DNA from: Octopus vulgaris
Lineage: Eukaryota
NCBI GenBank assembly: GCA_951406725.2
Contig: OX597827.1
Location: 81,158,001 to 81,222,000, forward strand
DNA: 64,000 nt
Direction of reading: 5' to 3'
The notes beneath the pieces are model-generated. The model was not told where the DNA came from and ran no database searches. It worked only from the letters and a program-made list of their open reading frames with translations. Both the position numbers and the translations under genes were made by a program. Positions 6,947 through 12,617 of the stretch are shown here, piece after piece (position 1 is the stretch's first letter; each line of letters begins with the position of its first letter).

Positions 6947-9287
6947 TATATACACACACATACACACACACACATATATATATATTTATATGTATATTTC
7001 CAGCCATTCTCAGAGAGAGTCTCATCGAGGAAGTAGTTGACAATATCAATGATTGGTGTGTGAAATGAGAGACTGTGTATAGACTTTGGCAGTGTATATA
7101 GAGACAAGTGTATGAGTGGTGGTGCATCAGTTGCCTTGTGCGGCTGCAGAAGTTGCACATCTGTGCAGTGTAAGGAGCACAATTCTCTCAGTAGTGCTGC
7201 TGCTGTTGATGTTGTTTGGTGACACTTGAAACTACTGCCTATACTTTACCTGGATCAATCTTATATACAGTTGCAGATACATACACACACATATCCACAC
7301 TATATACGCACACACACACGTATATATACATAAACATACACACATATATATATTTGTATATGCATATATATATATACATATACAATTATATACACATTTA
7401 AACTCTAAAGTTATACACACTAAATTATATTTGCACACAACTCATTCTACATACACATAATTACACATTATTCACATTTATACACTTTTACACACCCTGT
7501 ATATACACACTGAACCTTTCTTGCCCACTTCTTCATTTACTGACATAACTGTATACACAGCACATCATACACACACAGACACACATATACACACAGACAC
7601 ACATACACACACACACACACATATACACACGCACACACACAGACACACATATACACACAGACACATCATACACACACAGACACACATATACACACACAGA
7701 CACACATATACACACGCACACACACAACATAGAACTAACAGACACACATACAGTGAAAAATACGTATTTCCACTCATACATAACATCACACAGATGTTTA
7801 CACATAGACACACACACACACACACACACATATATACCTTTACGCATAATTACATACACACGCACACATACATTTTCACACCAACAAAAGTTTGCGACAG
7901 ACTGAAACATATGAATATTCACATTCATACTTTGTAACAAATCACATACACACACACTATCACACACATACACACTATCACACACACACACACAATCAGA
8001 CACACACACACTATCAGACACACACACACACACTATCAGACACATATACACACTATCACACTAACTTAATATACACACTGTCATAACACACATATACATA
8101 TATACATACATATACACATGCACACACCATTGCCACACTGCAAAAACATAACAGAAACTCACACATACTTTACTGAAAATTTATCATTAACATATACACA
8201 CACCTTCACAACAGCACACACACTCACATATACATAGACCATCGCAACAGCACACAGACACACCATCAAAACAACACACACACATACACACACCATAAAC
8301 AACAACACACATAGAAACTCACACAAACACACAATCAAAACAACACACGCGCACCATCAAAACAACACACACACATACACACATCATCAACAACAACACA
8401 CACAAACACACAATCAAAACAGCATACACCATACACAACAACACACATACCCACATAGAAACTCACGCATACACACACACAATCACAACAGCACACAGAC
8501 ACACCATCAAAACATCACACGCACACCATTAAAACAACACACACACACACATGCACGGATACACACGCACTTTATAGTAAAAAACTCACCTCTCACCCAC
8601 TGCCCCCTCCCCGCCGCTGCCAAGCACGCATCACAACCCCACCATCCGCATAGAGATATCATCTTAAACCGGAGATGTGACAACACCAGTTTGATGCCAT
8701 CACCATACGAAGCAGCAGCCAGAAGAGAGAGAGAGAGAGAGGAAGAGAGAAAGGGAAAGACAGAGAGAGAACGTGTGTGTGCGTGTGTGCTTATGCATGT
8801 GCGTAAGAGCGTGTGTCGGTGCGTCGTGTGTAGTTGATGACTAGAGCGCTGTCAGGAACAACGGAACAGAGATGGAACGGCTTGCCTGCAGGTAGGTGCA
8901 ACTTTACACCTCTCTCTTTTCACTGTATGTATACAGACCGCACACATACATACAAACATACATACATACAAACATACATACATACATACATACATACAAA
9001 CATACATACATACATACATACATACAGATAGACAGGTAGATAAATACATACATACATATGTTCATACATACACAAATCTATATATATATGTATACATACA
9101 TAGATACATACATACATAAATACATACACATGAGAGTATATATATATATTTATACACACATGTGTATGCACATGCATATACACACATGCATACTCATACA
9201 TATGTACATACAAACTTACATATATGCATACATACACATATACACCTATACATACATGCACACATATATATATAAACACACATATAG

Positions 9288-9320
<33 letters not shown>

Positions 9321-9454
9321 ATATATAATGTGTGTATATATAATGTATTTGTATATATATATACTTAAATGCATGCATCCATATATATACATCTATATAT
9401 ACACCCTGAACACGCATCGCAAAAGAATAACAACAAGTAAAGGAGCTACTATAG

Positions 9455-9665
9455 GGTTTGTTCATCTGCTAGAAATAGTAACCAAATCTCCCTCAAACCA
9501 TACCCTACCAAACATGTTAAAGAAGGAAAACTTACAGTGATGTTGTCCGAGGTACATTATGCCTAGTAAAATAATGTTGGGATGGTCGTGGATGGAATAG
9601 TTCTGGTCACATAATAAGTCTGTTGGATAAGAATAACTTGGGTGCTAAGTAACAACAACAACAAC
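9455..9665 (+). mobile_element. Interspersed repeat family C (CTAGAAATAG...GGATGGTC...(AAC)n tail), probably a SINE 3' part
   Basis: Related copies at ~11755-11905(-), 31615-31745(-), 36060-36185(+), 41455-41535(-), 43270-43460(-), 43545-43705(-), 60345-60400(+). Confidence 0.55.
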
Positions 9666-10990
9666 AAGAACAACTCTAACGACATTTGTAACAGTTGTTA
9701 ACATCAACAACAACAACAACGACAAAAGTGTTTGTAACAACATCAAGAACAATAACAACAACAACAACAACAACAACAACACATATAAACAACATGCTTG
9801 ATGATAACATCAACAACAATTACATCACTGATGACTGCAATAACAACAAAGACACGTTCAACTACTACTACTAACTACTACTACCACCACCACCACCACC
9901 ACCACTACTACTACTTCTACTACTACTACTACTACTACTACTATTACTACTACGACTACCACTACAACTACTACAGTTAACAACAACAACAACAGTAACA
10001 ACTTCACCCATAAACAACAACAAAACGAAGACTAAAGCCCCTTGGCACCACCTCACAAAAAAGATTGTCTCCCACTCTTCTTCACACACACACACACACA
10101 CACATGTACTTTCTCATACACACCACCATATATTCACACACACACATATACACACTTACAAAACTAACAAACATACACACACATACAGGTAATCTCTCTC
10201 CCTCTCTTTCTATATATACATCTCTCTCACTTTCTCCCTTACACACACACACACACACACACACACTCTGACAGGTAATGTCCCTCCCTATACAGACCGC
10301 ACACATACATACATACAAACATTCATACATACATACATTCATACATACATACATTCATACAAACATATACACACATACAACCCTATAAACTTATACATAC
10401 AAACATCCACACATATACACCCACTCCCCTGATATTCTGTTGATAAAAACAGACAACAACAATAACAACAACAACAGCAGTATTGAAAAGAGTTTGTCAA
10501 TATGAATTTGTAAAATAGTAATTTTGTAAAAAGTGAAGAAATTCTTCGAACAGAAAAGAGAGGGAGAAGGAAGGTGTGGTGGGGGTGGGGGAGGATTAGA
10601 AGGGGCTGGGAGAGAAACCAGGAATGGTTTGTGGGGCCCTCACAACATTACACTGTGGCTTTTACTACATTTTGTTGATGCCTTACTACAATATCTTGGC
10701 CCCTCCCACTATTTTCAGAATTGGACAATTTCCCACTGAGTCGGCCTCAAACATATTTTAATGTGGGTTTGTTTACTGTGATTTATTTTGAGTTTAGAGA
10801 AAGTGTTGAGTGGATTTTAGTATTGATACTAAGTGGGGTTTAGTACAGGGGTTGAGTGGAGTTTAGTGTGGGTACTGAGTAAGGAATTCCTATAATTTCT
10901 CTGGTATACATGCTAAAAATAATTTGATTTATTTTTTATTATGGAGATGTACTTACATAGCAAGTGACCTGATCTGAGATTGTGTGCTGA

Positions 10991-11278
10991 AACAAAAACA
11001 AGTGCAGCGTAGGTGTTTATAAGCCATTTAAAAACATGCAAAAACTGTTAAATTCACTTTAACATTTAAATTTAATTTGTCAAAATATCTTCGTTGCTTT
11101 GAGACCGTGACCAGTTCACTGAGACGCAGCACAGAATTTTGTCAGTGAACAGGTCGCAGTCTCAAAGCGACGAAAATATTTTGACAAATGAAATTTAAAT
11201 GTTAAAGTGAATCTAACAGTTTTTGTGTGTTTCTTAAATAGCTTATAAACGCCTTCCACGCTGCAATTGCTTTATTTT
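10991..11278. repeat. Long inverted repeat (~135-bp arms) containing hammerhead-like motifs
   Basis: Left arm ~10991-11122 and right arm ~11142-11278 are complementary around a ~19-nt spacer. Confidence 0.9.
11138..11188 (+). ncRNA. Candidate minimal type I hammerhead ribozyme with G3:C8 core
   Basis: Stem I TTTGTCA/TGACAAA; core GTGAACA plus an extra G; stem II GTCGC/GCGAC; GAA; palindromic stem III AATATT; H17=U. Folded by eye. Confidence 0.55.
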
Positions 11279-12617
11279 TAAGGAAATTTAAATAAGTTTT
11301 TAAATGTTTTTCTATAGAATGAGGTATTGTTGAATGTAGGTTTTATTGGGTTTGTGGGAGTGTTTGAGTGGAATTGGATAATGTTTAAAATTGGTTAGAA
11401 TAATCTGTAGAGTTTGGGTGGAACTGAAATGGGATTCATTATCATGCGTAGAGTGTCTGTGGTATTTGGTTTGTGTTACATCATAAGTTGGAATTACATG
11501 AGGTTTGGGGTTAAACTTGGTATTTTTTTTATTTTCATGGAAATGGGTAAATTTTCTGGGATTCTATAGAATTTCCCCCTATTTCTTTCTAAATTTTGTT
11601 CCCAATCCCGCATACATTTTGTGCCATGCATTTTCTGTACTTTACATGTAGAATTTCCAAAAGATATTCTACAGAACCATCTTAAAAGATTCTTTCAGTT
11701 TCAGCAGATACTTTGTTGATGATGGGTAACACTTGCTTAATTTTCATCAAACCCATAAACAAGCCATTCCAGCTGTGGCCATCCAGTCTATTTCCACATA
11801 AAATGTAACTGGATTCATATTATCTGATACATCCTCATTTTTAAAACAATACACTTGAGGAATATTTGACTACCATTTTTAGCAAATTGAGCAGTTCCAT
11901 AGAGACTCTTTCAAAGATGTTCCTTTCTGGAATTCATTGTATAAAATCCAGTGTAGACTTGTGTGAGGAGGACCAAATTCTATGCAAACATTTTGCTGAC
12001 CTCTGGGTGTCTAATGGAGTGACCATGGGATTGAGAAATTTAAAAGTACAGAATTATTGGTTCAATCTCACAGCAAGGTACTTGAGGTGACTATATTCTA
12101 CCATAGCATTGGTTGACCAATTCTTGTGAGAAAAATTTAGTTTGGCTTCATCAGACGAAGAATGTTAGCGTCTGGTCCCTAATATTGGCAGGCGAGGGGA
12201 TAACTAAAATATGGGGTCTTTTACCTCTGGTTTTCTCAAACATGATAGGAAGGCTGTGAATGAGAAATGAGAAGAAAAAATCCAAAGAAATTCAGAGATG
12301 GCTTTATAAAGTGGCAATGTGTCAGGGTGTTGTTGCTGTTGTTGTTGTGTGACAGACTCAACACATTGATTGGTTTAACATCAACACCTGCTCATTGGGT
12401 ACCTTTCATGAAGTACCTCTGTGGTAAGGATTCAAGACAGGTCTCTCTGCTCTGAGGGTAACATACATTCTCCCTCCTATCACTTTTGGCACTTAACTAC
12501 ACTTGACTGTGTCCTTCAGGGGTTATTACTGATATCCAGTTGTACAGTAAGGAATATTACACAAGAACATCCAATGACACAGTATTCAGCAAAATGACAA
12601 TAATAAAATAATGACTT

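What the first reader, a model, noticed from the sequence alone, without database searches (positions are those of the whole stretch)
11138..11188. Structurally complete hammerhead-like ribozyme with a natural G3:C8 core swap
Seen: the plus strand folds as a minimal type I hammerhead. Stem I is UUUGUCA (11138-44) paired with UGACAAA (11182-88). The core strand is GUGAACA (11145-51) instead of CUGANGA, followed by one extra G. Stem II is GUCGC/GCGAC, then GAA, a palindromic stem III AAUAUU and H17=U. Established: C3 and G8 form a Watson-Crick pair in the active hammerhead and compensatory swaps can rescue cleavage; Penelope-like elements carry minimal hammerheads whose palindromic stem III allows dimer cleavage. 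Inference: this is a covaried hammerhead family that CUGANGA pattern searches would miss. The antisense arm (~11076-11125) holds a decayed copy with the same GUGAAC core, so the swap predates the duplication.
Basis: partly seen in the sequence, partly recalled or inferred. Interest (0 to 1): 0.8.

Follow-up and report, generated by a model that had tools for sequence, protein, structure and literature searches.

The report
Swapped-core hammerhead in octopus Penelope retroelement
This stretch is the hammerhead-shaped RNA motif of a high-copy Penelope-type jumping gene, and two paired letters of its catalytic core have swapped places (C-G to G-C) across the whole family; it likely still cuts itself slowly, which would make it a natural variant so far seen in print only as a laboratory mutant in the papers I could read.

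Summary
The motif is at 11138-11188 exactly as described and is not chance (0 hits in 150 simulated windows). It lies in a 331-bp insertion (10939-11269): an inverted pair of arms, a 60-nt tail and a likely 11-nt target duplication. I traced the parent, a Penelope-like element (PLE) with RT plus C-terminal GIY-YIG, Nematis-like. It carries an intact G3:C8 motif about 1 kb behind the ORF in 8 of 8 long-ORF loci. G3:C8 is the family state: 120 of 132 arms, no C3:G8, at least 1,034 exact core matches, and no common core variant in three other organisms. Loop II changes between subfamilies while core and stems do not. Two related PLEs have C3:G8 at the matching place, with compensated stems. Cleavage is untested. 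Stem III is weak, a genomic test for cut-site truncations was inconclusive, and this copy is buried in its own inverted repeat in read-through RNA. I found natural U3:A8 but no natural G3:C8 in print; the key survey (Lunse 2017) was unavailable. This scan noted G3:C8 before in phage DNA and other PLEs (unchecked). Verdict: new variant of a known kind.

The parts
11138..11188 (+). Minimal type I hammerhead motif of a Penelope-like element (PLE), with a G3:C8 core pair
   Evidence: family conservation; covariation
11145..11152 (+). Core strand G3-U4-G5-A6-A7-C8-A9 plus the extra nucleotide between 9 and 10.1 that is typical of PLE minimal hammerheads
   Evidence: G3 in 78 of 79 arms, C8 in 76 of 79; hallmark described in PMC4209133
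11153..11171 (+). Stem II (5 bp, opening G10.1-C11.1) and loop II; the loop is the only part of the motif that differs between subfamilies
11172..11181 (+). G12-A13-A14, palindromic stem III AAUAUU and U17; predicted cut between 11181 and 11182
   Evidence: palindrome duplex only -0.2 kcal/mol; cut site inferred from hammerhead numbering
11122..11269 (+). Sense arm: 3' end of the PLE from the usual 5' limit of short copies to the first 3' end point (no tail)
10939..11122 (-). Inverted arm, 5'-truncated inside stem I; mutated G3:C8 core at about 11119-11113; includes the tail
10939..10998 (-). About 60-nt PLE 'tail', present on one arm only
   Evidence: tail concept PMC8557442, PMC11167929
10939..11027 (-). 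Likely start of the element's ORF (ATG at 11027, about 30 codons, one stop in this copy); resembles the N-terminus of the related family's intact ORF
   Evidence: L148 version: 10 of 25 identical, pairwise E 5e-05; inferred
10928..10938 (.). Likely left target-site duplication (11 nt, AT-rich)
11271..11281 (.). Likely right target-site duplication (10 of 11 identical to the left)
   Evidence: 14 of 18 copies with both ends show a >=10-nt flank match, against 34 of 306 mismatched pairs

Best explanation
The stretch is the minimal type I hammerhead of a Penelope-like retrotransposon family in which the core pair is fixed as G3:C8 instead of C3:G8, and it likely remains a slow self-cleaving ribozyme that would need a dimer or the element's own protein to cut after U11181. 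Shown: the motif sits about 1 kb behind an RT plus GIY-YIG ORF and about 90 nt before a likely ORF start, the normal pLTR position. The swap is the family state. Related elements have C3:G8 there. Inferred: stems I and II fold within one RNA. G3:C8 rebuilds the 3-8 pair that positions the 2'-OH of residue 8. G12 acts as the base. The weak AAUAUU palindrome forms stem III between two tandem copies or with protein help. Inferred origin of the window copy: reverse transcription primed at one of two internal sites in the ORF start (giving the tail) ran over mostly uncut RNA, stopped near a fixed 5' limit 23 nt before G3, and was inserted with an inverted partner and a target duplication. This copy is probably silent in read-through RNA.
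For: Parent found by following a shared loose end in reads of other organisms upstream. The ORF has RT motifs and a GIY-YIG above the Pfam cut-off (P0001). 8 of 8 long-ORF loci fetched (L187-L194) carry a perfect G3:C8 motif on the ORF strand. 120 of 132 arms are G3:C8, 0 are C3:G8, 8 have single changes, 4 were unparsed. 1,034 exact matches to a 39-nt core stretch, 0 for the reversed control. Old (61 arms) versus young (38 arms) subfamily majorities: 5 differences in the 9-nt loop II, 0 in 42 nt of core and stems (Fisher p 5e-5). In contigs of organisms C, D and E no variant reaches 5% at 11145-52 or 11172-81; the common stem I variant 11184 A>G keeps a U-G pair. A 54%-identical PLE family of this genome and a 41%-identical metagenome relative have C3:G8 at the matching place. 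In the 8-row alignment, 8 of 15 pairs change on both sides, and the 3-8 pair is GC in 5 rows and CG in 3. In print, the C3G/G8C double mutant partly restores cleavage of a PLE hammerhead, which cut only with the PLE protein present (PMC11167929). U17 is invariant (79 of 79), which fits the report that G3-C8 works worse with C17 than with G17 (PMC3884650, data not shown there).
Against: No cleavage assay and no usable RNA reads. Stem III is all A-U (-0.2 kcal/mol). Copies that begin exactly at the predicted cut are not clearly enriched: by my hand sorting, 35 junctions (50 with a 7-nt microhomology class) against 13, 12 and 28 at three control positions; 35 vs 28 gives p 0.45. Core and stems are not significantly more conserved than the downstream 140 nt (0 of 42 vs 8 of 140, p 0.20), and the loop changes may not be independent. 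The related C3:G8 family has C at position 9 and a poorly palindromic stem III, so constraint on catalysis may be loose in this clade. The covariation rests on three lineages, and the structure came from one of the rows. Hammerhead mutants did not impair insertion in vitro (PMC11167929).
Confidence: 0.62

Rival explanations
1. The motif is a true descendant of the PLE hammerhead but no longer cuts at a useful rate. It is kept as a fold or sequence that the element's protein, promoter or 5' leader needs, and the swap drifted in while cleavage was dispensable.
For: No clear pile-up of copies at the cut site. Large numbers of copies contain the uncut motif. Weak stem III. A9C in the related family. 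Cleavage is not needed for insertion in vitro (PMC11167929). Going from C3:G8 to G3:C8 needs two transversions with an inactive intermediate (inference).
Against: Drift would not be expected to land on the one double change that restores the 3-8 pair while keeping U4, G5, A6, A9, G12, A13, A14, A15.1-U16.1 and H17. The 3-8 pair is a feature of the active conformation (PMC3884650).
Confidence: 0.33
2. The motif is a chance look-alike inside a fold-back DNA element (MITE-like), and the stems are by-products of the palindrome.
For: The window copy is a 331-bp element with 96-nt inverted arms and no coding gene.
Against: 0 hits in 150 simulated windows. The parent is an RT plus GIY-YIG element. 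Stems I and II lie within one arm. Related PLEs carry canonical-core hammerheads at the same place.
Confidence: 0.02

Closest known systems
Minimal (dimeric) type I hammerheads of metazoan Penelope-like elements (Cervera and De la Pena 2014, PMC4209133)
   Same: Position in the pLTR; extra nucleotide between 9 and 10.1; G10.1-C11.1; long helix II; palindromic 15.2-16.2; mostly found in truncated copies, some as opposite-strand pairs.
   Different: 3-8 pair is G3:C8. The representatives I read in supplementary Fig. S3 (56 by its legend) start CUGA or UUGA, none GUGA. The extra nucleotide is G, where their consensus is H (one listed species has G).
Natural U3-A8 hammerhead variants (Perreault 2011, PMC3088659; Schistosoma Cercyon PLEs, PMC4209133)
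   Same: Natural compensatory change of the same 3-8 pair. The Neptune-like PLEs of this genome also carry U3:A8.
   Different: U3-A8 keeps pyrimidine 3 and purine 8 (two transitions). G3:C8 inverts the pair (two transversions).
Engineered C3G/G8C double mutant, including in the Anolis Poseidon PLE hammerhead (Frangieh 2024, PMC11167929; review PMC8495972)
   Same: Identical core change, reported to partly restore cleavage. Same layout of hammerhead, ORF start and tail.
   Different: Here it is natural and fixed in a family with intact ORFs. Activity was not measured here.
Nematis clade of EN+ PLEs (Craig 2021, PMC8557442)
   Same: RT followed by C-terminal GIY-YIG; Cys linker with a short spacer like the Nematis rows of their Fig. 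S2; inverted 5'-truncated partner; tail.
   Different: Clade judged by eye only; no named Nematis protein was in my tree. The tail is about 60 nt, against 30-40 nt described.

Membership tests
Hammerhead ribozyme (type I) | Three helices around the junction, with open end in helix I | tested here: met
   Stems I and II fold and covary. Helix III is only possible between molecules.
Hammerhead ribozyme (type I) | Literal core consensus CUGANGA | tested here: not met
   Core is GUGAACA in the window and family.
Hammerhead ribozyme (type I) | Watson-Crick pair between core positions 3 and 8 | tested here: met
   G3:C8 in 120 of 132 arms; C3:G8 in related PLEs; 8 of 8 rows paired.
Hammerhead ribozyme (type I) | U4, G5, A6, A9, G12, A13, A14, A15.1-U16.1 and an NUH cut triplet | tested here: met
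   Each present in at least 74 of 79 arms; triplet UUU.
Hammerhead ribozyme (type I) | Site-specific self-cleavage 3' of H17 | not testable with these tools
   Needs an assay. The indirect genomic footprint test was inconclusive.
Hammerhead ribozyme (type I) | Match to an Rfam hammerhead model | tested here: not met
   No match. A canonical C3:G8 minimal relative also has none at E<=10, so the test does not discriminate.
PLE minimal hammerhead | Extra nucleotide between 9 and 10.1, G10.1-C11.1, palindromic stem III | tested here: met
   definition in PMC4209133.
PLE minimal hammerhead | Located in the pLTR of a PLE, on the ORF strand | tested here: met
   About 1 kb behind the ORF in 8 of 8 loci; 92 nt before the likely ORF start.
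PLE minimal hammerhead | Cleaves as a dimer or with protein help | not testable with these tools
   A double-hammerhead pairing can be drawn; the palindrome duplex is -0.2 kcal/mol.
Penelope-like element (EN+) | Single ORF with RT and C-terminal GIY-YIG endonuclease | tested here: met
   GIY-YIG 25.4 bits against cut-off 22.6 at residues 915-1005. Pfam RVT_1 did not hit P0001; RT is read from the YVDD-type motif and from homologues named reverse transcriptase domain proteins.
Penelope-like element (EN+) | 5'-truncated copies with inverted partner and a tail at one end | tested here: met
Penelope-like element (EN+) | Full-length tandem copy with upstream pLTR running into the ORF | tested here: inconclusive
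   No full-length copy of this family was seen; the longest ORF (1025 aa, L187) is 5'-truncated. The related family is full length and shows the layout.
Nematis clade | Phylogenetic placement with named Nematis RTs | tested here: inconclusive
   Linker spacing matches by eye. A quick tree separates the family from the Neptune-like ORFs but had no named Nematis.

The most novel reading that the evidence does not exclude
This is the first natural, catalytically active G3:C8 hammerhead in an animal: an inverted core pair fixed in a recently active retrotransposon, spread to thousands of sites and kept across at least four organisms. One genome then holds PLE hammerheads with three different 3-8 pairs (C:G, U:A, G:C), and PLE families thought to lack a hammerhead may carry swapped cores that CUGANGA searches skip.
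Probability: 0.4. Interest if true: 0.68.

Novelty: new variant of a known kind. Interest (0 to 1): 0.52.

Why it matters
The C3-G8 pair defines the active hammerhead conformation. The G3:C8 swap is known as a partly active lab mutant. A family-wide natural swap, with C3:G8 relatives at the same position, is evolutionary evidence that the pair, not the letters, is selected in Penelope-like elements. That bears on the open question of whether PLE hammerheads need to cut at all. The young subfamily (about 1.8% divergence, long intact ORFs) supplies both RNA and protein for a direct test. It also shows that descriptors fixed on CUGANGA or YUGANRA undercount hammerheads.

Tried and rejected
Rfam at gathering score over the window: nothing. 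E-value mode on L203, L212 and L214: only microsatellite noise. First parent searches failed. Ten 9-kb regions around exact matches had no PLE ORF of this family. The top GIY-YIG hits were Neptune-like PLEs with U3:A8 motifs, not the parent. An apparent 3' extension in L069 was another repeat into which the element had inserted. A search for a third related family found only the two known ones in the 10 loci checked. Cleavage-footprint test: inconclusive; junctions were sorted by eye and only three control positions were possible. Expression: no RNA holder listed. Run X16 is only guessed to be RNA and is kept as contigs, so its 757 laid contigs are not used as evidence. Tree: quick tree only, the careful search was unfinished; L203 dropped out; the two families of this genome are not resolved as sisters, so I call the second one 'related'. 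Literature: searches for G3-C8, G3C8, GUGANCA, C3G/G8C, N3-N8 and octopus plus Penelope plus hammerhead found no natural G3:C8. Lunse 2017, Przybilski and Hammann 2007 and Nelson and Uhlenbeck 2008 are not held. The third part of the PMC4209133 supplement was not read. MITE and chance readings were rejected (see rivals).

Full report
Observation. The 51-mer folds into stems I and II (z -2.33). A descriptor that accepts any Watson-Crick 3-8 pair finds this one site in the window and none in 150 Markov resamples. Rfam has no match, but it also misses a canonical relative.

The insertion. The motif lies in the right arm of an inverted repeat (96 nt, 89%). Aligning 28 of the 30 loci shows a unit of about 330 bp: a sense arm (11122-11269) and an inverted arm (11122 down to 10939) that carries an extra 60-nt tail. 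Of 18 copies with both ends, 14 have a flank duplication of 10 nt or more, against 34 of 306 mismatched pairs; several of these flanks are AT microsatellites. An inverted, 5'-truncated partner and a one-sided tail are the described signature of PLE insertions (PMC8557442, passages). The left arm is truncated inside stem I and has further point changes. In any + strand RNA starting at or before 11100 the arms pair with each other and hammerhead stems I and II fall to probability 0.0. Starting at 11126 they are about 0.7 and 0.98. This copy is therefore likely silent in read-through RNA.

Family state. A 39-nt core stretch has 1,034 exact matches in the 2.8-Gb genome and 0 for the reversed control; both arms of one insertion can count. 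Among 79 of 81 arms that aligned without gaps, G3 is in 78 and C8 in 76. In a larger set, 120 of 132 arms are G3:C8, none C3:G8, 8 carry one change and 4 were unparsed. These samples favour close matches. Contigs from three other organisms (C, D, E; 5006, 4590 and 2065 laid) show no variant at 5% or more in 11145-52 or 11172-81. Variants fall in loop II, CpG sites, the downstream linker and 11184 A>G, which leaves a U-G pair in stem I.

Parent element. A loose end shared by all four runs led to 547 longer copies. [quoted passage not shown] All 8 long-ORF loci fetched carry a perfect G3:C8 motif about 1 kb behind the ORF on the same strand. This young subfamily is 1.8% from its majority; the window's older subfamily is 4.5%. 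Between them the 9-nt loop II differs at 5 positions and the 42 nt of core and stems at none (p 5e-5). The contrast with the downstream 140 nt (8 differences) is not significant (p 0.20). The last 90 nt of the element read as a likely ORF start resembling the N-terminus of a related intact ORF (10 of 25 identical). This matches the hammerhead, ORF start and tail layout of the Anolis PLE (PMC11167929, first half of the text read). The cysteine linker looks Nematis-like by eye against Fig. S2 rows of PMC8557442. The best protein hit is named by NCBI as Octopus vulgaris and is nearly identical to the related family's ORF, so the host is inferred to be an octopus.

The swap is covariation. A related PLE family in the same genome (54% identity over 814 aa) has at the matching place a motif with C3:G8, compensated changes in stems I and II, U or C at 17, but C at position 9 and a poorly palindromic stem III. 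A metagenome relative (41% identity, L203) has a fully canonical C3:G8 minimal hammerhead behind its ORF. In an 8-row alignment 92% of cells pair, 8 of 15 pairs change on both sides, the 3-8 pair is GC in 5 rows and CG in 3, and slid controls pair 23-50%. Only three lineages contribute and the structure was taken from one row, so this supports homology and pairing; it is not a formal probability. C3:G8 in both relatives and in most published representatives makes G3:C8 the likely derived state.

Mechanism. Shown: position, family fixation, covariation. From print: C3-G8 is a pair of the active fold (PMC3884650, passages). G8C drops the rate 10^5-fold and C3G partly restores it (PMC8495972, passage). 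The same double mutant partly rescues a PLE hammerhead that cuts only with its protein, and cutting is not needed for insertion in vitro (PMC11167929). PLE minimal hammerheads cut weakly and as multimers (PMC4209133, parts 1-2 of 4 and supplement parts 1-2 of 3). Inferred: this motif cuts slowly after U17 with stem III supplied by a second copy or with protein help. The AAUAUU duplex alone is only -0.2 kcal/mol. Short copies have a sharp 5' limit: of 76 arms, 14 start 23 nt before G3, 14 more at 20-22, 13 at 3, and 2 reach beyond 23 (the sample favours short inverted pairs). They contain the uncut motif, so uncut RNA is likely the main template.

Test for cleavage in the genome. If cut RNA were copied, copies would begin at 11182. 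Patterns forcing a non-parental boundary gave 56 hits at the cut, 17 at -5, 24 at +3 and 34 at +8. After removing mutated intact copies by eye (6, 4, 12 and 6), junctions are 50, 13, 12 and 28. Fifteen of the 50 can be explained by the 7-nt complementarity of stem I, leaving 35. That exceeds two controls (p about 0.002 and 0.001) but not the third (p 0.45). A few fold-backs are centred exactly on the cut, and three hits duplicate the first 11 nt after it. The result is inconclusive.

Novelty. Natural U3-A8 is published (PMC3088659, section 8 and passages; PMC4209133). Six searches and the representatives of Fig. S3 of PMC4209133 showed no natural G3:C8. Passages of PMC10085705, PMC6765202 and bioRxiv 10.64898/2026.07.22.740005 added none. 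The largest survey of PLE hammerhead variants (Lunse 2017) is not held; I saw only its title in a reference list, and it may contain the swap. Earlier notes of this scan report G3:C8 in phage hammerheads and in two other PLE tails; I did not test them. If they hold, the swap recurs in nature, and this case stands out for copy number, an identified parent with intact ORFs and C3:G8 homologues.

Verdict. Observation confirmed; interpretation supported except that activity is unshown and this copy is likely masked. New variant of a known kind. Identity as a PLE hammerhead with a swapped 3-8 pair about 0.97; catalytically competent about 0.62; interest 0.52.

Noticed in passing
L195:6881-6936 (+), also L196-L202, L207, L211-L213: The related, very young PLE family (ORFs of about 1310 aa, near-identical copies) has a C3:G8 hammerhead with C in place of the conserved A9 and a poorly palindromic stem III; position 17 is U or C.
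   Followed up: partly
L048-L076 (3' ends of Neptune-like PLEs with 781-aa ORFs): These PLEs carry U3:A8 hammerheads with no extra nucleotide and an ACAUGU palindrome, so one genome holds C:G, U:A and G:C at the 3-8 pair.
   Followed up: partly
L057, L146, L192 and the 3' region of L077: Hammerhead-like motifs with C at position 4 (CCGA core) in other repeat families (L077 read by eye).
   Followed up: no
window 11122; L112-L147 upstream of the motif: Long copies have a branch-point-like CTAAC, a pyrimidine run and CAG right at the 5' limit of the short copies. This could be a splice acceptor (the Drosophila virilis Penelope intron ends at helix I, PMC4209133) or an initiator-like transcription start. 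Not resolved.
   Followed up: partly
L074:1268-2704 (+): A 479-aa ORF lies upstream of and overlaps the start of the 781-aa RT-EN ORF in a Neptune-like PLE, suggesting a two-ORF or frameshifted layout.
   Followed up: no
L031, L032: Two loci on contig C1 share a roughly 4-kb inverted structure at 97-98% identity, each with two copies of the element.
   Followed up: no
window 9000-10490: Long run of mixed simple repeats (TACA, CAA, CTA) upstream of the insertion; ordinary for this genome.
   Followed up: no
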